A DNA stretch of 64,000 nucleotides, taken from the IMG/VR virus record IMGVR_UViG_3300027766_000001. One strand, 5' to 3'. The notes beneath the pieces are model-generated. The model had not been told where the DNA came from, did not search any database, and saw nothing but the letters and a program-made list of their open reading frames with translations. The position numbers were made by a program, and so were the translations under genes. Positions 1,946 through 39,504 of this stretch are shown here, piece after piece; positions within the stretch are counted from its first letter, which is position 1; each line of letters opens with the position of its first letter. This stretch comes from a virus. Lineage: Duplodnaviria > Caudoviricetes.

Positions 1946-3670
1946 ATGACTGATTTATTGAGCGGTGCGTTCAAGACCACGACCACATTGGCGGCGGCCT
2001 TGCAACCTATCCTTCCCAAAGCAAACGACCTTGTGAGCTTCTGGGATATTCGTAACATCTATAAAGGCCCCGCCTTCATTCAGGAAAACGGCTACTACGC
2101 TTACGTTCCGAAAGAAGGCGATTGGGTCGTTGACCACGACAACGGTTGGTTCTACGTGGCGCATGTTGGCTTAGAAGGTGAGAACCTGTCAACGCTGGTG
2201 CCGTGGGAAGCCCCTGACCGTGCTGGCACTACCGATGATGACCTGGTGATCCTCGGCAACATCTCGCGCATGACCAGTGAGTTCATTACCTGTGGTATTG
2301 ACTACTCGCAAATGCCGCCGGTCATGAGTGTGGATAACCGCATCCAGGTGTTTGGCTCCAATGTGGCATCGGCTAAAATCTGGCTGAACAACGACATTGG
2401 CGTCAACGGGAAAGTGGTCAGCTGTCAATACGACAACTCGGGTAACATCGTGAGCGACACGGTTCCACTGGAACTGGCGAAGTTCAACGATTCACGCAAC
2501 ATTGCAGTGCGTATCCCGATGCCGTGTAACTGCTCCATGAACTTAGCGGACGGGGAAACCCTGACGTTTGCAGCCTACGATAAGAACGGCGGGATCATTC
2601 TGCCCGTGTATCGCATGGTGGTACAGAACACGGCGTTTGTCCGTCGTAATGAAGCGGGGCAAAAATACGTGAAGGCGGTACAGTTGCTCTCGCCATTCAT
2701 GAACGGCGCTGATCCGAACCTGCTTGAGATTCCGGTGTCGATTCGTGACCTGAGTCAGGTGGAGTTCCGTGCGCGTGTCTGGTATACCGACAACTCGTAT
2801 AAGGACTGGCCAGTAGACGGTGAGCGTATGGTGTTAAACGGGGTGCGGGAATATATCCCAACCATCGTCGGACAACAGGCTAACCTGACACTGACGTACT
2901 TTCTGAATGACGACGAGCAAGCGGTCTCTGCAAATCCGGGTGAGAAGAAGCACGTGGATGAACAGTATCGCATTCGTACCACGGAAGCGGTCGGCGCGTA
3001 TGCAGCGAAGCTTTACGGTTATCCGGTGTTCAAGTCGGCAACGCTTGGCTGGCAGATGTCCTGGTGGCTGTATAACCTGGATCGTCAGATGGCGTATGAG
3101 GTGACGGACAAAGTCGAAGTGGCGAAGAACTCTGAGCCGTTTGATGGGTTGAACTACGGGGTGGTGCAGCATCTGTCTTACGCGGTTACGCTGTCAGATG
3201 TGGACTCTCGTTGGAAATCGTTCCGTCATGTGCAGAACATCGATGTGGTCTTGTACGGTGCGCCAGGTCTCGCAACCGGCACTGACTGGACGGTTGGCTT
3301 TGACCCCGGTCAGGATCCCCTGTTCGGTGTGGCGCTTTCCTGTAAGATCACCACCCAGACGGCGAACTCCCGTACGGTGAGGGTGGACTCCGGTATTGCG
3401 ACCTACGCTGAATGGCTGCAGCAGATGTTCTACAACACGCGTCCGTTGCGCTCCATTGCTTCGGAATCAAAAGCCCCTGAGCCGACCCACTTCGAGATCT
3501 ACGTCGACAGCACCCACGTGTACCGCTACCCGGTATCGCAGTGGAATGCGGTTCTCACGATCAGCACGATCCTGAACATTGGTCAGACCGTGTATGTGAA
3601 GTGGCTGAAAACGGACACAGGTAACGTTGAACTGCAGCTGGGTGTTTCTGCCCTGGTGGTCAAGCAGTAA
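1946..3670 (+). CDS. Virion structural protein (phiKZ gp26-like by synteny)
   Basis: 574 aa beta-rich ORF directly upstream of the terminase; ATG at 1946 follows the previous stop. Confidence 0.5.
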   Translation: MTDLLSGAFKTTTTLAAALQPILPKANDLVSFWDIRNIYKGPAFIQENGYYAYVPKEGDWVVDHDNGWFYVAHVGLEGENLSTLVPWEAPDRAGTTDDDLVILGNISRMTSEFITCGIDYSQMPPVMSVDNRIQVFGSNVASAKIWLNNDIGVNGKVVSCQYDNSGNIVSDTVPLELAKFNDSRNIAVRIPMPCNCSMNLADGETLTFAAYDKNGGIILPVYRMVVQNTAFVRRNEAGQKYVKAVQLLSPFMNGADPNLLEIPVSIRDLSQVEFRARVWYTDNSYKDWPVDGERMVLNGVREYIPTIVGQQANLTLTYFLNDDEQAVSANPGEKKHVDEQYRIRTTEAVGAYAAKLYGYPVFKSATLGWQMSWWLYNLDRQMAYEVTDKVEVAKNSEPFDGLNYGVVQHLSYAVTLSDVDSRWKSFRHVQNIDVVLYGAPGLATGTDWTVGFDPGQDPLFGVALSCKITTQTANSRTVRVDSGIATYAEWLQQMFYNTRPLRSIASESKAPEPTHFEIYVDSTHVYRYPVSQWNAVLTISTILNIGQTVYVKWLKTDTGNVELQLGVSALVVKQ

Positions 3671-3732: not shown

Positions 3733-5913
3733 ATGATACTGTATGGCAATGACTGGTGTAAATACCGCATGATGCCACACGTTCATTATGAGACCAAGAA
3801 CGACAGCTTCTTGAAGGTTGCGAAGAAGATGCATGACATGGGCGTGAAGAACTGCCTGTTTATGCTCTCCTTGTTCAACAAGTCTCTGATCGACGTAGAC
3901 CCGTATGATCCCAACTTAACGGAAGAACAAAAGAAGGCGATCGCCATCGAGTGCAGTATCAACTTCTGGTACTTCATTCGTGAAGTGATTCGCATCCGTG
4001 TTCCGGGTCAGGCTGAAGGTATCCGTTATATCGCCAACCGTGGCAACATGGCCTTGAGTTGGTTGTACCTCTGTCACATCGACGTGTTCTTGATCCAGCC
4101 ACGTCAGACCGGTAAATCGGTTTCTACCGACTGTATCATGTTGTGGTTAATCTACTTCGGTAGCCGTAACAACAACATCTCCCTGATTACCAAGGGTGAC
4201 CTTCGTGCAGAAAACATTAAGCGCCTGAAGGCGATGCGTGACTTCTTGCCGAAGTATCTAATTGTGCGTGACCGTCACGATCCGGACAACTCCGAGTGGA
4301 TCGGTTATGCAGCCCTGAAGAATGCGTACAAAGCTGCTATTGCACAGGGTAACGAAACTGCAGCCAACAACCTGGGTCGTGGTATTACCACGGCGACCAT
4401 TCACATCGATGAAGGCCCGTTCTTGTCATTCGTGGATATCACCATCCCGGCGGCACTGAACGCCACAACCACTGCACGACGTTATGCTGAGAAATTCGGC
4501 ACACCACACGGCAACATCTTTACCACTACGGCGGGTCGACGCGACTCCCGTGAGGGCAAGTACTTCTACGGTATCTTGCAAGATGCAGCGGTGTGGAACG
4601 AGATGTATTATGATTGCGTGGATTTCAAAGACTTGTCTGAAACCATCATGAACAACTCGGGCTCAGAAGCACCGGCGGTGAACATCACCATGTCGCATCG
4701 CCAGTTGGGGTACACTGACGAATGGTTACGTAAAACCATCGCACAGAACAAGAACGACAAGGAGTCGGCAGAACGTGACTTCCTTAACCGCTGGACTTCA
4801 GGTAACCTGACGTCTCCTCTGTCGATCGCACTCAACGAAAAGATCAACGCCTCGCAGCGTGAAGTAGTGTACACCGAGATCACCAAACACAAATACATTG
4901 TGCGGTGGTACATTACCAAGGCCGAGATCGAAAGCAACAAAACGGCCACGCACTACATCGTCGGCATGGATACCTCTGACGCGACGTCAACCGGGGACAG
5001 CAACACCATCGTCTTCCGTGATATCCGTGACATGGGTGTAGTGGCAACCATGAACTTCCGTAACACCAACACCATCAACGTCAACCACATGGTGGCGGAC
5101 TTGCTGGAACAGCACAAGAACTCCACGTTCGTTCCTGAACGTAACCGTGCACAATCCCTGATCGACCACTTACTGATTGAGCTGCCTCGTCGCGGCATGG
5201 ATCCGTTTAAGCGTATCTACAATACGTTGGTGGATGACCAGACCGTGCGTCGTACTGAGTTCATGGAATTGGTCAACACACCACTGGGTGCACGTACACA
5301 GGAATTCTACGATTCCAAACGTACGTACTTCGGGTTCTGGACTGGTTCACAATCGCGTCCGATCCTTTATGGTCGTGTATTGCAAGAATCAGCCAAACAC
5401 ACCGGGTATGCAACGCGTGACAAAGAACTGATCGATCAGATCATGGGGCTGGTTGCGAAAGGCGGGCGTGTGGATCACAAGTCAGGCGGTCATGATGACC
5501 TGGTTATTGCCTGGCTGTTGGGTTACTGGTTTATCACCGATGCGCGTCACCAAGACTGGTACGGAATCGACACACGTAAAGTGATGTGCGTTTCTGAACA
5601 GGCGCAAGGTTACAGCATAGAAGAACAAGCCTGGTTGGATTACCAAGCCCGTCTGCGTGATGAACTGACCAACACCATGGAGCTGTTGAAAACCGCAACT
5701 CATCAGATGGCAATCACCCGTCTTGAACAACAAGTGCGCAATTTACGTGCACAGGTTGTCGATATGGGCAATGATGCTATGACTGTTGACCAGTTGTTGT
5801 TGGAAGCCAAAGAAACGCGTCAGTTGAAAGCACGAGCAGGTCGTAACACTGCACCGCCGACAAATGTTGGTGCGCGTGTCAAATCACGGCGTTACGCTGG
5901 CATGTATTTCTAA
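3733..5913 (+). CDS. terL: Terminase large subunit
   Basis: Walker A QPRQTGKS, Walker B IHIDEG, RNase H-like nuclease motifs VGMDTS and HDDLVIAW; 726 aa, phiKZ gp25-like size. Confidence 0.92.
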   Translation: MILYGNDWCKYRMMPHVHYETKNDSFLKVAKKMHDMGVKNCLFMLSLFNKSLIDVDPYDPNLTEEQKKAIAIECSINFWYFIREVIRIRVPGQAEGIRYIANRGNMALSWLYLCHIDVFLIQPRQTGKSVSTDCIMLWLIYFGSRNNNISLITKGDLRAENIKRLKAMRDFLPKYLIVRDRHDPDNSEWIGYAALKNAYKAAIAQGNETAANNLGRGITTATIHIDEGPFLSFVDITIPAALNATTTARRYAEKFGTPHGNIFTTTAGRRDSREGKYFYGILQDAAVWNEMYYDCVDFKDLSETIMNNSGSEAPAVNITMSHRQLGYTDEWLRKTIAQNKNDKESAERDFLNRWTSGNLTSPLSIALNEKINASQREVVYTEITKHKYIVRWYITKAEIESNKTATHYIVGMDTSDATSTGDSNTIVFRDIRDMGVVATMNFRNTNTINVNHMVADLLEQHKNSTFVPERNRAQSLIDHLLIELPRRGMDPFKRIYNTLVDDQTVRRTEFMELVNTPLGARTQEFYDSKRTYFGFWTGSQSRPILYGRVLQESAKHTGYATRDKELIDQIMGLVAKGGRVDHKSGGHDDLVIAWLLGYWFITDARHQDWYGIDTRKVMCVSEQAQGYSIEEQAWLDYQARLRDELTNTMELLKTATHQMAITRLEQQVRNLRAQVVDMGNDAMTVDQLLLEAKETRQLKARAGRNTAPPTNVGARVKSRRYAGMYF

Positions 5914-16254: not shown

Positions 16255-16283
16255 AATCTCAAGTCTATATTACTGAGGTGATA
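16255..16283 (+). promoter_or_regulatory. Phage early promoter (TATATTAC)
   Basis: AAATCTCAAGTCTATATTACTGAGGTGAT; core at 16266-16273. Confidence 0.7.
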
Positions 16284-21051: not shown

Positions 21052-21136
21052 GGCGGTGTCGCATAGCGGCAATTGCAGGGGACTGTAAATCCCCCGACTT
21101 CGGTCTTCGATGGTTCGAGTCCATCCGCCGCCACCA
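21052..21136 (+). tRNA. tRNA-Tyr (GTA), 85 nt, CCA encoded
   Basis: Acceptor GGCGGTG/CGCCGCC-A-CCA; anticodon arm GGGGA-CTGTAAA-TCCCC; long variable arm; T-arm GATGG-TTCGAGT-CCATC. Confidence 0.97.
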
Positions 21137-21411
21137 ACTTTGTTCAGGTAAGAGGCACAGGTCTGGCTGGTAACCAACCTGCAGCGATGATCGCGTAGAC
21201 CTACGGCATACCCATAAGTCCGTAAGAGCCGAACACATAAAGGACTACTGTTCCATCTGGATCAGGTAGGTGTTCTGATCGCTGACTGATTACTCGATAC
21301 GACAAGGCCTACACAGCCAACCCTAAACACCGAAATTAAGTTAATGGGCAAATGCATTCATGTTCAGGAAACCACATCTCGCTGACAGCTTTCAGCTTAG
21401 TGGAGATGAAC

Positions 21412-21714
21412 ATGAACATTTATAAAGTGGAACGTACTGACAATCTGGATTGGGATGAATTTGGGGGCATGGTCGTAATTGCTGCGTCTGAGGATGCTGC
21501 TAGGTTACTGCACCCCGGGGTCGTTCACCAATCTAATTGTGATGAAGTGCTGGATTGCATTAAGGAGTCACTGGAACAATTTGAGTGGGAAGCTAAGCGG
21601 TATCATCCGTCCTGGGTTCTACTCAAAGACGTCCATACTCTGCGCGTTACCCTAGTGGGAACAGCACACGCATCGTCCGCTGCTGTGATCCTTACGGATT
21701 ACAATGCCGGTTAA
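21412..21714 (+). CDS. Conserved small phage protein
   Basis: MNIYKVERTDNLDWDEFGGMVVIAASEDAARLLHP resembles a recurrent phage family; GGAG RBS. Confidence 0.7.
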   Translation: MNIYKVERTDNLDWDEFGGMVVIAASEDAARLLHPGVVHQSNCDEVLDCIKESLEQFEWEAKRYHPSWVLLKDVHTLRVTLVGTAHASSAAVILTDYNAG

Positions 21715-21719
21715 CTTAA

Positions 21720-21742
21720 GTCCGGGCATGACCCGGACACCT
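21720..21742 (+). ncRNA. tRNA acceptor-like microhelix
   Basis: GTCCGGG-CATGA-CCCGGAC-ACCT; outer 6 bp and the following ACCTATTC are identical to the tRNA-like element at 22430. Confidence 0.45.
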
Positions 21743-21750
21743 ATTCAGAA

Positions 21751-21836
21751 TTAGATTGATAGCAGCCAATGGGCTTTCACCCCATCACGCCCGGCTGACG
21801 GGAGCGGCGATCAGTCTAAACCCGAGTGCACTCGGG
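21751..21836 (+). ncRNA. Structured RNA element plus perfect palindrome
   Basis: TTAGATTGAT/ATCAGTCTAA closing stem with inner CAGCC/GGCTG and ATGGG/CCCAT; 16-bp palindrome CCCGAGTGCACTCGGG at 21821-21836. Confidence 0.5.
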
Positions 21837-21845
21837 CACCCTTTT

Positions 21846-21931
21846 GAGGTTTCGGACAGCTGCGACTTTCAACTAAGTCATACTCGCTGAAGCCGACCGG
21901 ACTGTACGAATTGCAGTCTGTCCTTAACCTC
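21846..21931 (+). ncRNA. Structured RNA element (multi-branch)
   Basis: GAGGTT-GGACAG-CTGCGA paired with TTGCAG-CTGTCC-AACCTC; inner GACTT/AAGTC hairpin. Confidence 0.5.
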
Positions 21932-22035
21932 GATCCATTTAACATGATGAAGCATACCAAGAGTACGTGAGCGGAACTTGATCCCAATCACATCTGTTTA
22001 TCCATGCGATGATAAACTACTCGAGGAAATTCATT

Positions 22036-22422
22036 ATGTTGAATAAAGAAGTGCTGTTAGCCCTGACCCCGTCTCTGACCGGCTTTAAAGATGAAGACCA
22101 TGACTACGGCCAGGTCTGGTATGACGAATGGTACTTCCGCGTGGAGAACCATGAACGCTACCATATCGTCTTTGGCTGGTATGAGTACGAGGATTACTCA
22201 GGACATTCCTATGTCTTTGGTTACGACAAGGAAGAGGATAAGTTCTTTGAAGTGGTCGCCTACCATTGCTCCTGCTACGGCTTGGAGGAAGGTTGGGATC
22301 CTGAGTACTTCGAATCAACAGCGTTACTGGCTGATTACCTGGCGAAGTTCAAGGGTAAAACCTACTCTTCAGGTCAGCTGACTTTGGTTGCGTTCTTGAA
22401 AGAGTGCGGAATCGAAGTATAA
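22036..22422 (+). CDS. Conserved small acidic phage protein
   Basis: 128 aa, GAGGA RBS, HCSCYGLE motif seen in a recurrent phage family. Confidence 0.75.
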   Translation: MLNKEVLLALTPSLTGFKDEDHDYGQVWYDEWYFRVENHERYHIVFGWYEYEDYSGHSYVFGYDKEEDKFFEVVAYHCSCYGLEEGWDPEYFESTALLADYLAKFKGKTYSSGQLTLVAFLKECGIEV

Positions 22423-22429
22423 CCGAATC

Positions 22430-22529
22430 GTCCGGATAGTTTAATAAGAACGGTGCGCCGGAATGCCCTTAAACTTACTAGGGGTGGTGTGCGCACAGGT
22501 GGTGGGGTCTGATCTCCCTCCGGACACCT
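22430..22529 (+). ncRNA. tRNA-like RNA A (expanded anticodon arm, degenerate T arm)
   Basis: 7-bp acceptor GTCCGGA/TCCGGAC-A-CC; T8A9 plus D-arm GTT-TAATAAG-AAC; GTGCGC/GCGCAC stem enclosing 32 nt; AGGT variable segment; weak GGGG/CTCC T-arm. Confidence 0.55.
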
Positions 22530-22538
22530 ATTCTCAAT

Positions 22539-22690
22539 GCTGGCACTAGCCAAACGGAAAGGCTTATACTTGGACGCTGAGTCGACGCAGTTATCAGCCA
22601 GGTATAGATTGCTCTGACAACACCATGTCATCATTAGACAATGTGATGTCATCATTATCGGGTTCGAGTCCCGGTGTGCTTCAGCTACCT
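22539..22690 (+). ncRNA. tRNA-like RNA B (expanded anticodon and variable arms)
   Basis: D-arm TA-GCC-AAACGGAAA-GGC; canonical T-arm ATCGGG-TTCGAGT-CCCGGT; acceptor GCTGGCAC/GTGC(TT)CAGC followed by T-ACCT; TATACTTGG/CCAGGTATA in place of the anticodon stem. Confidence 0.65.
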
Positions 22691-22691
22691 C

Positions 22692-22810
22692 TTTGTCGTT
22701 AGCCTGATGAGTCGCCGACATTAAACGCGACGAAACGTAGAACATGAAATTCATCCACTGAGGATTCACCACCTCGGTGCCCGCTAGGCATGTTCTATGT
22801 AGCAGTGAAG
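22692..22810 (+). ncRNA. Hammerhead ribozyme, type I, with pseudoknot
   Basis: CTGATGA 22704-22710; stem II GTCGC/GCGAC; GAAA 22732-22735; 12-bp stem III (A)CGTAGAACATG/CATGTTCTATG(T); GTA cleavage triplet ending 22801; stem I GC/GC; loop II CGACA complements TGTCG 22694-22698. Confidence 0.85.
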
Positions 22811-22975
22811 ATTCATTGACCAAGGTGTCTCGAACTTACACAGCCTTCTGCTCATCGGGTCACTCCCGGTACCAAGGTGAGCAGCGGGGTGTGGTAATTT
22901 GTCCGGTTACTGCGTCAAGGGCTGTAGGGGTATGGTCCTGGTTTTATCCTCAGATGTTCCATGTGAAAGCGGCTA

Positions 22976-23008
22976 AACCCCGGGGGTAACACCTCGGGGT
23001 TTATGCCG
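22976..23008 (+). terminator. Terminator closing the RNA island, TTTATGCCG class
   Basis: AACCCCGGGG-GTAACA-CCTCGGGGTTTATGCCG. Confidence 0.8.
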
Positions 23009-23025: not shown

Positions 23026-23050
23026 ATTTCAAACCTATATTACACTGGTG
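23026..23050 (+). promoter_or_regulatory. Phage early promoter (TATATTAC)
   Basis: ATTTCAAACCTATATTACACTGGTG; core at 23036-23043. Confidence 0.7.
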
Positions 23051-37348: not shown

Positions 37349-37376
37349 TTTTACAACCCTATATTACCTAAGTGTA
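37349..37376 (+). promoter_or_regulatory. Phage early promoter for chimallin (TATATTAC)
   Basis: TTTTACAACCCTATATTACCTAAGTGTA; core at 37360-37367. Confidence 0.75.
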
Positions 37377-37452
37377 ATTACCATGGTAATTTCATTCGCG
37401 AATGTTAAATATAAGTGGCCCCGCCACTGAACACCAAAAAGGAACAAGCAGT

Positions 37453-39504
37453 ATGAAAACTCGTAACGACCAGCCGCAACCAGCTAACAACTCTCTGGCC
37501 GATGCACTGAACCAGGCGAACGCACAGCAGCAGCCTCAGGCACAACCGCAGGCGCAGCCACAACCTCAGGTTCAACAGCCGCAGGGTACTGCTCAGCAGC
37601 AGCCGATCTTCCAGCAGCCGCAACAGGGCTTCGCTGGTCAGGCGCCGCAGCAGGATGGCCAGGATCGTAACTCTAAGATCTTCGGTCTGAACAACCGCAT
37701 GTCGCGTACCTTCTCTTCTCAGACCTATTCTGAGAACTTCAAGATCGCGAACGAAGCGGTGCAGGAATTCTGCAAACCGTACGAAGGTGATGGCTTCAAC
37801 CAGACCTTCTTCGTAATCCCACTGCAGGACCAGAACCTGCACTGTGCTGCACTGATCTACGTCATGGCTATCAGCCAGTCCGCTTACGGCGTGTACACCT
37901 ACATGCTGGAAAACACCGGTAGCCCGCTGAAGCCGCTGGTAGGTAACGACCAGTTCACTGGCGAGCGCTATGAGCTGCCGCGCATGACCGGTTCTCAGTA
38001 CGATGATATCTACTGGGGTGCCGTGAAGGGCGCAGTAATCCGTCATCTGAAACTGCAGAACAACTCTGCTGTCCAGATCATGGAAGCTGGCGCGGGTGTT
38101 ATCCATGCGGAAATGGATTGGAAAGACGGTGGCGCAATCGGTCGTCTGCTGAACAACGCAGAAAACGCCGTGTACGCTTACGCGAACCGCATCTCTGGCT
38201 ACAAGATCGAAGAGCCGCTGAACCTGGCAACTGCGATCAACCCGCTGGTTGACCGTCTGTCCGCTGGTTTCAACTTCAATCCGCAGCCTCTGATTACGGC
38301 TGATGGTCAGCCGATGCGCAACGACGTAGAGATCAAACTGACCGTGTCTTCTGAAGGCAACGTGCAGGTACAGAACTCTGAGCCGTTCACTACCGTTCAC
38401 GGTTACGTGGAACTGGTAAGCGCAGGTCCGCAGCCGGTCATGATCCCGAACGGTTACGGTCAGATGATGCAGGCGCCGCAGCGCTACTACCCGCAGCTGG
38501 CAATCACTGCCGTTGACCAGGGTATCTTCGACGCAGAAGCACCGGAGTTCCAGGTGCTGGGTCTGTACGTAGCCACCCTGTTGCTGGAAAACAACAACTG
38601 GATGAATGCGTTCGCACCACGTATGGTCGGCGGTGTTGATATCAACGATATCGGCGCACTGAACTACGAACTGCGCATGGGCGTGGATCCGCAAGATCCT
38701 AACGCGCGTCCGAAGAAGATCGATACCAAAACGCACGAGTTCAACAACAACGCACTGCAGCAGCTGCTGAGCCAGGCGTGCTTCCCGAACATGTCCGTAG
38801 TCATGGACATCGAAGAAACTGGTCACCGTAACTGGGTGAACTCCATGTTCCTTCAAGCGGGCGGTATCCCGGGTTCTAACGCAACCATGCTGCCGCAGGA
38901 CGGCCGTCTGGCGCACGAAGCAGTTATCGCTGCTGCGAACAACCTGACCAATGGCGAGTTCAGTAAGTTCTTTACTGACACTACCAAACTGATCACTATC
39001 CGTGACGGTTCTCGTATCCAGGGTGGTTACTACCTGAGCGACGATGGTAAGCGTCTGGACGTTCGTAACGTTGACCTGGTAGCAGTACTGAACTTCCTGG
39101 GTGAATCTGATCCGCGTCGCGTTGAAGAATGGAAAATGATCTGTTCTTCTACCTCTGGCCTGTCTGGTCCGAAACGCATCGCACTGCGTCAGCAGTTCCT
39201 GCAGACTATCCTGGGTGCATCGTACGTGCAGAAATGCTACTACGAGCGCGTCATGATTTCCAACGACTTCCTGGCCGCACTGCGTTCTGCAATCATCGCA
39301 GCCGGTGTTCAGGTTCGTCCGGAGAACATGTCTAACCAGTACAACGCCATGTCTTACGGCATGCCGCTGGCCGCACAGTATGGCTTCAACACCCATACCG
39401 CGTCTTCGCTGCAGGCTGCAGGCTACGGTCAGCTGGATCAGCAGGGTCGTGTCGTACAGTTCGGTAACTACCGTACTCCGTTCGGCCACTTCAACGTCCA
39501 GTAA
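37453..39504 (+). CDS. chmA: Chimallin, major phage nuclear shell protein
   Basis: 683 aa; extremely optimised codons; immediately upstream of the nvRNAP beta-prime gene and two genes from the DNA polymerase (phiKZ gp54 synteny); Q/P-rich N-terminal extension. Confidence 0.85.
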   Translation: MKTRNDQPQPANNSLADALNQANAQQQPQAQPQAQPQPQVQQPQGTAQQQPIFQQPQQGFAGQAPQQDGQDRNSKIFGLNNRMSRTFSSQTYSENFKIANEAVQEFCKPYEGDGFNQTFFVIPLQDQNLHCAALIYVMAISQSAYGVYTYMLENTGSPLKPLVGNDQFTGERYELPRMTGSQYDDIYWGAVKGAVIRHLKLQNNSAVQIMEAGAGVIHAEMDWKDGGAIGRLLNNAENAVYAYANRISGYKIEEPLNLATAINPLVDRLSAGFNFNPQPLITADGQPMRNDVEIKLTVSSEGNVQVQNSEPFTTVHGYVELVSAGPQPVMIPNGYGQMMQAPQRYYPQLAITAVDQGIFDAEAPEFQVLGLYVATLLLENNNWMNAFAPRMVGGVDINDIGALNYELRMGVDPQDPNARPKKIDTKTHEFNNNALQQLLSQACFPNMSVVMDIEETGHRNWVNSMFLQAGGIPGSNATMLPQDGRLAHEAVIAAANNLTNGEFSKFFTDTTKLITIRDGSRIQGGYYLSDDGKRLDVRNVDLVAVLNFLGESDPRRVEEWKMICSSTSGLSGPKRIALRQQFLQTILGASYVQKCYYERVMISNDFLAALRSAIIAAGVQVRPENMSNQYNAMSYGMPLAAQYGFNTHTASSLQAAGYGQLDQQGRVVQFGNYRTPFGHFNVQ

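What the first reader, a model, noticed from the sequence alone, without database searches (positions are those of the whole stretch)
21720..22690. Shared A-C-C-T 3-prime signature and a repeated CCGGACACCTATTC module
Seen: CCGGACACCTATTC occurs at 21733-21746 and 22520-22533. Each copy closes a GTCCGG-initiated helix just after an ORF stop, with a 7-nt insert in one case and an ~84-nt insert in the other. tRNA-like B also ends with ACCT (22687-22690). All three helices therefore end A-C-C-T, one base from ACCA, whereas the real tRNA-Tyr encodes CCA. Inference: a common processing or CCA-repair signal. The 7-bp hairpin would be a natural acceptor microhelix.
Basis: partly seen in the sequence, partly recalled or inferred. 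Interest (0 to 1): 0.6.

Follow-up and report, generated by a model that had tools for sequence, protein, structure and literature searches.

The report
tRNA-style end tags in jumbo phage
Two RNA helices in a giant, nucleus-forming phage, a small hairpin and the stem of a tRNA look-alike, each sit just after a gene and carry the same tRNA-type 'ACC plus U-rich' tail, so they probably mark where host tRNA-processing enzymes cut a long early transcript; this is plausible but unproven.

Summary
CCGGACACCTATTC occurs exactly at 21733-46 and 22520-33. Each copy is the 3' strand of a GTCCGG-initiated helix plus an 8-nt single-stranded tail, 5 and 7 nt after an ORF stop. Copy 1 closes a 7-bp hairpin. 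Copy 2 closes the acceptor stem of a covariation-proven tRNA-like RNA (29 pairs, 12 compensatory).

The exact 14-mer is not remarkable in itself: 24 direct repeats of 14 nt or more occur in the window. Only this genome has it. What four related jumbo-phage genomes share is the design: helix GYCCRGR, then ACC, then a U-rich trailer. ACC is kept in 5/5 tRNA-like A copies (one reads ACCA), 4/5 hairpins and 3/3 tRNA-like B copies as RCC, offset by one U. Lineage-specific RNA insertions carry their own hairpin+RCC.

The modules lie inside an early operon, lack the phage's standard terminator tail (UUUAUGCCG) and are not repeated genome-wide.

Best reading (0.45): tRNA-type punctuation like plant mitochondrial t-elements. 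RNase P cuts 5' of the helix using RCC. RNase E and RNase T trim back to CC, and the host CCA enzyme may add A.

Other notes of this scan cover the same locus on this same genome.

The parts
21052..21136 (+). Genuine tRNA-Tyr(GTA) with encoded A-CCA, followed by a U-rich trailer. It is the reference for the tRNA-type end.
   Evidence: ARAGORN; Rfam tRNA 52.7 bits
21412..21714 (+). Conserved 100-aa ORF of unknown function. Its stop lies 5 nt before hairpin 1.
   Evidence: ORF list. tblastn gave 82% identity in L053. It is annotated as a CDS in SA002 and pEa48. No Pfam hit.
21720..21738 (+). Hairpin 1: a 7-bp acceptor-stem-like helix GUCCGGG / CCCGGAC with a 5-nt loop. Its 3' strand is the first 6 nt of 14-mer copy 1.
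   Evidence: Sequence. It appears in the MFE and centroid folds. Orthologues read GCCCGGG/CCCGGGC, a compensatory U-A to C-G change, with G-U in pEa48.
21739..21746 (+). Tail ACCUAUUC of hairpin 1, a single-stranded linker.
   Evidence: Unpaired in the fold. Orthologues read ACCUAUUC (L053, pEa48), ACCUCUUC (L023) and ACUCAUUC (SA002).
21821..21845 (+). Hairpin 1' (CCCGAG-UGCA-CUCGGG) plus C-ACCC-UUUU. It is the positional orthologue of the single hairpin+tail of SA002, pEa48 and L023, and it ends a window/L053-specific RNA insertion (21747-21820).
   Evidence: L053 has a 7-bp version followed directly by ACCC.
22009..22422 (+). 137-aa ORF of unknown function in a variable cassette position. 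It is replaced by another ORF in pEa48 and absent in L023. Its stop lies 7 nt before tRNA-like A.
22430..22525 (+). tRNA-like RNA A. It has a 7-bp acceptor stem and a 4-bp D arm without GG. Its anticodon arm is extended (6 bp, internal loop, 6 bp) and ends in an invariant 7-nt loop AACUUAC. The T arm is 6 bp and non-canonical. The 3' acceptor strand holds 14-mer copy 2.
   Evidence: Alignment A1 and pair counts: 29 pairs, 98.6% paired, 12 compensatory, 0/500 shuffles as good. The MFE fold reproduces the cloverleaf. It is single-copy per genome by covariance model. It is not called by ARAGORN or Rfam.
22526..22533 (+). Tail ACCUAUUC of tRNA-like A (A73-C74-C75, then a U and an AU-rich trailer).
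   Evidence: Orthologues read ACCUAUUC, ACCAAUUU, ACCUAUUA and AACCUUUU. It is unpaired in the fold.
22539..22690 (+). tRNA-like RNA B with a canonical T arm, an 8-bp terminal helix with a UU bulge, then U-ACC-U.
   Evidence: The orthologous tails are U-ACC-A (L053) and U-GCC-A (pEa48). B is absent in SA002 and L023.
22692..22810 (+). Type I hammerhead ribozyme directly downstream, listed here only for context. Predicted cut after A22801.
   Evidence: Rfam Hammerhead_3 core, 30.3 bits, below the gathering score. The core and long stem III are conserved with an A-U to G-C change in relatives. It is treated in another report.
16265..16273 (+). phiKZ-type early promoter motif CTATATTAC that opens the operon containing the RNA locus.
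   Evidence: Consensus in PMC7058600 Table 2.
22974..23008 (+). Standard terminator of this phage (12-bp hairpin + UUUAUGCCG) that closes the operon. The next early promoter is at 23035.
   Evidence: It is conserved in all five genomes.

Best explanation
The repeated 14-mer is the 3' half of two acceptor-stem-type helices (consensus G-Y-C-C-R-G-R paired to its complement) plus a tRNA-type 3' flank: A73-C74-C75 and then a U/A-rich trailer. One helix is a bare 7-bp hairpin. The other is the acceptor stem of a conserved tRNA mimic. Both lie a few nucleotides after ORF stops inside one long early transcript of a nucleus-forming jumbo phage. That transcript also carries a real tRNA, a second tRNA mimic, other folded RNAs and a hammerhead ribozyme.

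Most likely they are tRNA-style punctuation marks, like plant mitochondrial t-elements and 'acceptor-stem-like stem-loops'. Host RNase P would use the helix and the RCC to cut at G+1. This would end the upstream mRNA just after its stop codon and free the downstream RNA. RNase E would cut the AU-rich trailer and RNase T would trim back and stall at CC. The host CCA-adding enzyme could then add A76, which would explain why position 76 drifts between U and A.

Shown here: the helices, their covariation, the single-stranded tails, the orthologous retention of RCC, the position inside an operon, and the non-terminator character.

Inferred: every enzymatic step.
For: - The helices are real and the tails are unpaired.
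- RCC is kept at orthologous sites: tRNA-like A 5/5, including a natural ACCA; hairpin 1 4/5; B 3/3 as RCC; hairpin 1' in window and L053.
- A further hairpin+G-ACC-UUAUU ends an RNA module found only in SA002, pEa48 and L023.
- Both helices keep the G-Y-C-C-R-G-R pattern in all five genomes while covarying independently.
- Each helix starts 5-9 nt after a stop codon, whichever ORF occupies the cassette.
- No early promoter and no UUUAUGCCG terminator lies between 16266 and 23000. The modules are therefore internal to an operon whose downstream parts must still be transcribed.
- L023 has no canonical tRNA yet keeps the modules.
- Enzymology from the literature: RNase P pairs with R73-C74-C75 and cleaves hairpin model substrates (PMC12710915, PMC11143913). 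RNase E and RNase T process the trailer, RNase T stops at CC and the CCA enzyme repairs the end (PMC5824355). t-elements and acceptor-like stem-loops define mRNA ends (PMC1920247).
Against: - No transcript ends are known for any of these phages.
- Only five genomes are available, at 70-93% identity, so retention of 3 nt is weak statistically.
- SA002 has ACUC after hairpin 1.
- B's RCC is one nucleotide out of register.
- Hairpin+ACC and the tail motif are at chance frequency window-wide and in relatives' genomes.
- The exact 14-mer identity is specific to this genome and is of a length that recurs by chance.
- A 7-bp hairpin with a 5-nt loop lacks the T-arm stack that makes good RNase P and CCA-enzyme substrates.
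- tRNA-like A lacks a canonical T loop.
Confidence: 0.45

Rival explanations
1. Common descent without a shared signal. Hairpin 1 would be a relic or duplicate of the acceptor end of a tRNA-like gene, or the reverse. It would now serve only as a generic 3' stabiliser or attenuating hairpin for the upstream mRNA. On this view the shared tail is inherited sequence that is slowly drifting.
For: The tails drift independently in the more distant genomes: ACUCAUUC against ACCAAUUU in SA002, and ACCUCUUC against AACCUUUU in L023. The identity of the tails is no higher than the local background of about 75-80%. GC-rich CCGGG-type hairpins are the phage's common hairpin type. The 14-mer identity exists only in the window.
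Against: The duplication would have to predate the split of all five genomes, yet both helix patterns and the ACC persist. Two independent lineage-specific RNA insertions each carry a hairpin+RCC+U-rich tail. tRNA-like A is under strong structural selection.
Confidence: 0.25
2. Hairpin 1, and perhaps the acceptor helix, act as weak intrinsic terminators or pause sites for the phage RNA polymerases. The U-rich tail would be an imperfect U-tract.
For: The helix is GC-rich. In SA002, pEa48 and L023 the tail continues ACCUAUUCUUAUUUGG, with 8 U in 14 nt. The element sits directly after a stop codon.
Against: The terminator scan did not call it; the tail has only 3 U in the first 8 nt. This phage has a sharply defined terminator class, hairpin + UUUAUGCCG, with 10 exact copies in 64 kb, and the modules lack that tail. 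The downstream ORF, tRNA mimics and ribozyme have no promoter of their own.
Confidence: 0.12
3. The strong version of the first reader's idea. The ACC-ended helices would be completed to CCA and then charged or bound as tRNA mimics, including the 7-bp microhelix. They might act as decoys for synthetases, EF-Tu, or host anticodon or acceptor nucleases.
For: The acceptor-type helix with A73-C74-C75 is conserved, and natural ACCA variants exist. tRNA-like A has an invariant 7-nt loop AACUUAC. L023 keeps the mimic without any real tRNA.
Against: No identity elements could be assigned. The D and T loops are non-canonical, and the loop has A rather than U at position 33. Nothing distinguishes this reading from mere processing. 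The hairpin's ACC is not universal.
Confidence: 0.1
4. Pure coincidence: two unrelated helices that happen to share 14 nt.
For: Repeats of 14 nt or more are common in the window. The pattern-specific shuffle test is only 5/100.
Against: Both copies sit in the same structural position (3' strand + tail) and the same genomic position (just after a stop). The same helix-ACC-U-rich design is present at both orthologous sites in four other genomes, where the helices differ in sequence.
Confidence: 0.06

Closest known systems
Plant mitochondrial t-elements and acceptor-stem-like stem-loops (the tRNA punctuation principle)
   Same: Non-canonical tRNA-like folds and bare acceptor-like hairpins lie next to mRNA ends in polycistronic transcripts. 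They are proposed or shown to direct RNase P and RNase Z cuts. Released t-elements even receive non-encoded C, CC or CA (PMC1920247).
   Different: Here the setting is a bacteriophage early operon, not an organelle. The RCC is encoded, which suits bacterial type-A RNase P. RNase Z is not expected to be the 3' enzyme. No ends have been mapped.
Bacterial RNase P hairpin model substrates and non-tRNA substrates with a 3' RCCA (pATSer-type hairpins, P1/P7 C4 RNA, phi80 M3 RNA, polycistronic mRNAs)
   Same: A helix starts with G+1 and is followed by single-stranded R-C-C, the three residues that pair with the P15 loop of the ribozyme (PMC12710915, PMC11143913).
   Different: Hairpin 1 has only 7 bp, whereas the usual model substrate has a 12-bp acceptor+T stack. 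Cleavage has not been tested.
Phage T4 tRNA cluster (dimeric precursors; absence of the 3' CCA in precursor variants lowers tRNA yield)
   Same: Phage RNAs are processed by host RNase P, and the presence of the 3' CCA affects how much mature tRNA is produced (PMC11143913). From my own knowledge, not checked here, some T4 tRNA genes lack an encoded CCA that the host enzyme then adds, and T4 also carries stable tRNA-cluster RNAs of unknown function.
   Different: The RNAs here are not decoding tRNAs. One module is a bare hairpin. They are interleaved with ORFs and a hammerhead in a nucleus-forming jumbo phage.
Intrinsic (Rho-independent) terminators
   Same: A GC-rich hairpin after a stop codon with a U-containing tail.
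   Different: There is no U-run next to the stem. The module differs from this phage's own hairpin+UUUAUGCCG class, and it is internal to an operon.

Membership tests
Canonical tRNA gene | Detected by tRNA covariance model or ARAGORN at default settings | tested here: not met
   Only tRNA-Tyr is called. Relaxed ARAGORN gives inconsistent anticodons and borders across orthologues.
Canonical tRNA gene | 7-bp acceptor stem followed by N73-C-C-A | tested here: inconclusive
   The 7-bp stem and A-C-C are present in 5/5 tRNA-like A copies, but A76 is encoded only in SA002.
Canonical tRNA gene | D-loop GG, T-loop UUCRA, and a 5-bp anticodon stem with a 7-nt loop carrying U33 | tested here: not met
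   The D loop is AAURA. The T loop is variable, at 5-7 nt. The anticodon arm has 12 bp in two helices, and its loop AACUUAC has A at position 33.
Bacterial RNase P substrate (RCCA-dependent hairpin type) | Helix with G at +1 and N-1 not paired to N73 | tested here: met
   G21720 and G22430 start the helices. N-1 is A or C, and N73 is A.
Bacterial RNase P substrate (RCCA-dependent hairpin type) | Single-stranded R73-C74-C75 immediately 3' of the helix | tested here: met
   ACC directly follows both helices and is unpaired in the folds. The exceptions are SA002 hairpin 1 (ACU) and B, which is offset by one U.
Bacterial RNase P substrate (RCCA-dependent hairpin type) | Cleavage by RNase P at +1 | not testable with these tools
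   This needs an in vitro M1 RNA/C5 assay or end mapping in an rnpA ts host.
t-element / tRNA punctuation | tRNA-like or acceptor-like fold abutting an mRNA end in a polycistronic transcript | tested here: met
   The helices begin 5-9 nt after ORF stops in all genomes. They are internal to an operon bounded by a promoter at 16266 and a terminator at about 23000. The mRNA ends themselves are inferred.
t-element / tRNA punctuation | Mapped transcript termini coincide with the ends of the element | not testable with these tools
   No transcriptome is available for these phages.
Intrinsic terminator | U-tract starting within 0-2 nt of the stem | tested here: not met
   The tail ACCUAUUC has 3 U in 8 nt. 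The scan did not report it.
Intrinsic terminator | Matches the phage's own terminator class and lies at the end of a transcription unit | tested here: not met
   It lacks UUUAUGCCG, which has 10 exact copies after hairpins elsewhere. The downstream genes have no promoter motif.
Dispersed repeat / mobile element (REP-like) | Many copies across the genome | tested here: not met
   There are two copies in the window. tRNA-like A is single-copy per genome. The tail motif is at control frequency in relatives' whole genomes.

The most novel reading that the evidence does not exclude
A nucleus-forming jumbo phage builds its early RNA locus from portable cassettes, each a folded RNA plus an acceptor-type helix with an encoded RCC tag. 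The tags recruit the host tRNA maturation line (RNase P, RNase E and RNase T, CCA-adding enzyme). That line would dice one early transcript into mRNAs and a set of stable CCA-ended tRNA mimics that then act on host tRNA-directed factors. This would be bacterial-virus 'tRNA punctuation' working alongside a self-cleaving ribozyme.
Probability: 0.25. Interest if true: 0.7.

Novelty: new variant of a known kind. Interest (0 to 1): 0.45.

Why it matters
If the tags work as proposed, this would be a case of tRNA-type punctuation in a phage operon. Until now that principle is known from mitochondria and from scattered RNase P substrates. It would explain how a chimallivirus turns a 6.7-kb early transcript into separate mRNAs and stable structured RNAs using host enzymes together with its own hammerhead. 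It would also give simple, mutable handles (ACC, G+1) for studying the unknown tRNA mimics next to them. If the tags do not work this way, the repeat is only a relic of duplication, and the interesting objects are the neighbouring RNAs themselves.

Tried and rejected
- Rfam at permissive thresholds found nothing for hairpin 1, tRNA-like A or tRNA-like B.
- Relaxed, intron and mitochondrial ARAGORN modes gave mutually inconsistent calls, so the intron-containing-tRNA reading was rejected.
- Genome-wide signal tests were negative. These covered hairpin+ACC counts, other ACCTATTC copies, which all lie in CDS without hairpins, and the tail motif in three whole relatives against the reversed control.
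- The search for more homologues gave little. One IMG/VR pattern scan yielded L023 and L043. It added only L174, which is the same phage as L053. Covariation therefore rests on five genomes.
- No phage CCA-adding enzyme (PF01743) was found in SA002, pEa48, L023 or L053.
- The neighbouring ORFs have no Pfam function.
- I recalled a resemblance of the 21137-21350 RNA to RNase P RNA S-domain motifs. It found no support in Rfam or in blastn against E. coli genomes, and I dropped it.
- The terminator reading was examined and ranked low.
- A resemblance of the tail to the 16S rRNA 3' end, and of the acceptor and D region to tRNA-Arg, were only memory-based leads. They were not tested and are not used.

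Full report
**What the window is.** The window encodes a nuclear shell protein (chimallin, 37402-39501), split multisubunit RNA polymerase beta subunits, a DNA polymerase and a large terminase. It is therefore a nucleus-forming jumbo phage. Its closest database relatives are:
- Salmonella phage vB_SalM_SA002 (L001) and Erwinia phage pEa_SNUABM_48 (L002);
- two uncultured contigs, L053 (the same phage as L043 and L174) and L023 (the same as L037; a complete 273-kb genome).

No whole genome is held for the window itself.

**The observation.** CCGGACACCTATTC occurs exactly at 21733-46 and 22520-33 and nowhere else at up to 2 mismatches.
- Copy 1 is the 3' strand (CCGGAC) of hairpin GUCCGGG-CAUGA-CCCGGAC (21720-38) plus the tail ACCUAUUC. 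The hairpin starts 5 nt after the TAA of ORF 21412-21714.
- Copy 2 is the last 6 nt of the acceptor stem of tRNA-like A (22430-22525) plus the same tail. That helix starts 7 nt after the TAA of ORF 22009-22422.
- The 7-nt and 84-nt inserts, ACCT at 22687-90, and the encoded CCA of tRNA-Tyr are all as described.

**Is it more than chance?** As a bare repeat it is not.
- The window holds 24 distinct direct repeats of 14 nt or more. Markov shuffles average about 10 repeated 14-mer pairs, and at least one pair within 1 kb in 20% of shuffles.
- Hairpins followed by ACC are at the expected frequency window-wide: 2 of 138 on the + strand against 2.2 expected.
- The three other ACCTATTC copies lie inside coding sequence without hairpins.
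- GRCACCTATT occurs at control frequency in three complete relatives.

The case therefore rests on structure, position and orthology.

**Structure.** MFE folding independently returns hairpin 1, a single-stranded ACCUAUUCAGAA linker, a 69-nt stem-closed RNA, a second hairpin (21821-36) and a further folded RNA (z = -5.6). It also returns a cloverleaf-like tRNA-like A with an unpaired ACCUAUUCUCAAU linker before tRNA-like B.

For tRNA-like A, a five-genome alignment gives 29 pairs with 98.6% of cells paired. Twelve pairs carry compensatory changes, no shuffle out of 500 does as well, and all slid-register controls collapse. The RNA has:
- a 7-bp acceptor stem;
- a D arm without GG;
- a two-helix 'anticodon' arm ending in the invariant loop AACUUAC;
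- a non-canonical T arm.

It is single-copy in every genome and is not recognised as a tRNA. Hairpin 1 changes from GUCCGGG/CCCGGAC (window, L053) to GCCCGGG/CCCGGGC (SA002, L023), a compensatory pair. pEa48 has a G-U at one position.

**Orthology of the tails.**

| Element | Window | L053 | pEa48 | SA002 | L023 |
|---|---|---|---|---|---|
| tRNA-like A | ACCUAUUC | ACCUAUUC | ACCUAUUA | ACCAAUUU | AACCUUUU |
| Hairpin 1 | ACCUAUUC | ACCUAUUC | ACCUAUUC | ACUCAUUC | ACCUCUUC |
| tRNA-like B | U-ACC-U | U-ACC-A | U-GCC-A | absent | absent |

The ancestral state at both sites was therefore helix + ACCUAUUC. The exact 14-mer exists only in the window, because two covarying acceptor pairs happen to match there. 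L053 shares only about 10 nt between its two sites.

In all five genomes both helices follow G-Y-C-C-R-G-R. tRNA-like B's RCC is one nucleotide out of the tRNA register.

Two lineage-specific RNA insertions bring their own tag.
- In the window and L053, the module 21747-21845 ends in hairpin 21821-36 + C-ACCC-UUUU. This hairpin is the positional orthologue of the single hairpin of the other three genomes.
- In SA002, pEa48 and L023, an extra RNA of about 105 nt ends in GAUCCGGG-UACGU-CCCGGAUC + G-ACC-UUAUU. Two of its pairs are compensatory in L023.

**Transcriptional context.** The phiKZ-type early promoter motif ccTAYATTAY..GTG occurs eight times, all on the + strand, including at 16266 and 23036 and just upstream of chimallin at 37360 (published consensus in PMC7058600, Table 2).

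This phage has a sharply defined terminator class, a GC hairpin followed immediately by UUUAUGCCG. It has ten exact copies in 64 kb, among them 16228 and 23000. Neither signal occurs between 16266 and 23000. The tRNA and RNA locus is therefore the distal part of a single early operon, and both modules are internal to it.

The generic terminator scan does not call hairpin 1. The terminator reading is therefore weak.

**Mechanism (inferred).** In Enterobacterales, RNase P RNA pairs with R73-C74-C75 of its substrates and cleaves hairpin model substrates and several phage and mRNA substrates (PMC12710915, PMC11143913). A76 is not part of that pairing.

3' trailers are cut by RNase E. RNase T removes AU-rich trailers efficiently and is blocked by terminal CC. 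The CCA-adding enzyme restores the A, and all host tRNA genes encode CCA (PMC5824355).

A helix + ACC + UAUU is exactly the substrate that this pathway would convert to helix-ACC(A). That makes the U/A drift at position 76 understandable.

The closest biological analogue is the plant mitochondrial t-element system. There, non-canonical tRNA-like folds and even 'acceptor-stem-like stem-loops' define mRNA 5' and 3' ends via RNase P and RNase Z, and released t-elements carry non-encoded C, CC or CA (PMC1920247).

I found no description of such punctuation in phages in the held literature. No phage CCA-adding enzyme gene is present in the relatives. L023 lacks any canonical tRNA yet keeps hairpin 1, tRNA-like A and the hammerhead, which argues that these are not just leftovers of a tRNA cluster.

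**Weighing.** I put 0.45 on tRNA-type punctuation and processing tags. The rivals are:
- 0.25 on inherited similarity with only generic hairpin function;
- 0.12 on weak termination;
- 0.10 on full tRNA mimicry with CCA completion and charging or decoy action;
- 0.06 on coincidence.

Weak points are the small number of genomes, SA002's ACUC, B's offset, chance-level counts, and the shortness of the hairpin as an RNase P or CCA-enzyme substrate.

**Relation to other notes of this scan.** Other notes cover the same locus of this genome: the hammerhead, tRNA-like A and B, and the minihelices. I re-derived the hammerhead core and its long stem III from the orthologues. I re-tested tRNA-like A by covariation. 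I used the pointer to the second minihelix at 21821.

Noticed in passing
window 6327, 11352, 16228, 23000, 27288, 29354, 45597, 50400, 51246 (+) and 14672 (-): Ten exact copies of TTTATGCCG, each immediately after a GC-rich hairpin. This is a sharply conserved terminator tail for this phage. Several copies are followed within about 40 nt by the early promoter motif.
   Followed up: partly
window 8862, 16266, 23036, 29381, 37360, 43639, 51345, 56442 (+): The phiKZ/201phi2-1-type early promoter motif ccTAYATTAY..GTG, all copies on the + strand. One lies directly upstream of the chimallin gene.
   Followed up: partly
window 21137-21350 (orthologues L001 2655-2850, L023 2005-2200): A non-coding stretch of about 210 nt after tRNA-Tyr, highly conserved in all five genomes. 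L023 keeps it although it lacks the tRNA. There is no Rfam hit and no E. coli similarity. It is probably a structured RNA of unknown kind.
   Followed up: partly
L001 2850-2960; L002 2367-2477; L023 2199-2309: An extra RNA module of about 105 nt, present only in SA002, pEa48 and L023. It ends in hairpin GAUCCGGG-UACGU-CCCGGAUC followed by G-ACC-UUAUU. The window and L053 lack it.
   Followed up: partly
window 21747-21820: A 69-nt RNA closed by a 10-bp stem (21751-21819), within an insertion specific to the window and L053 that lies between two hairpin+ACC tags. This suggests cassette-like gain of RNA domains.
   Followed up: partly
window 21844-21933: A folded RNA of about 90 nt, conserved in all five genomes. 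Its closing stem covaries by eye between the genomes (not formally counted). Its 3' flank again contains CC(A)+AU-rich sequence, but 2-3 nt from the helix.
   Followed up: no
L001 about 4046-4092; L002 about 3536-3562: Mini-ORFs of 7-8 codons with good Shine-Dalgarno sequences just upstream of the hammerhead in SA002 and pEa48. The stop codon (ATC TAA GTCGTA) overlaps hammerhead stem I. The window has no such mini-ORF.
   Followed up: no
window 22803-22826 and 22854-22878: Two hairpins in the post-hammerhead RNA are each followed by ACCAAGGUG. The first ACCA-NGGUGUCUCG is conserved in all five genomes.
   Followed up: no
L284 1268-1395: An unrelated metagenomic contig carries an expanded tRNA-like RNA directly after a normal tRNA. 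It has an 8-bp acceptor GGUCGCGA/UCGCGACC, a canonical T arm, a long insert and no CCA.
   Followed up: no
window 22009-22422 versus L002 2988-3266 versus L023 2700-2800: The slot between hairpin 1 and tRNA-like A is a variable cassette. It holds a 137-aa ORF in the window, SA002 and L053, a different 92-aa ORF in pEa48, and no ORF in L023.
   Followed up: partly
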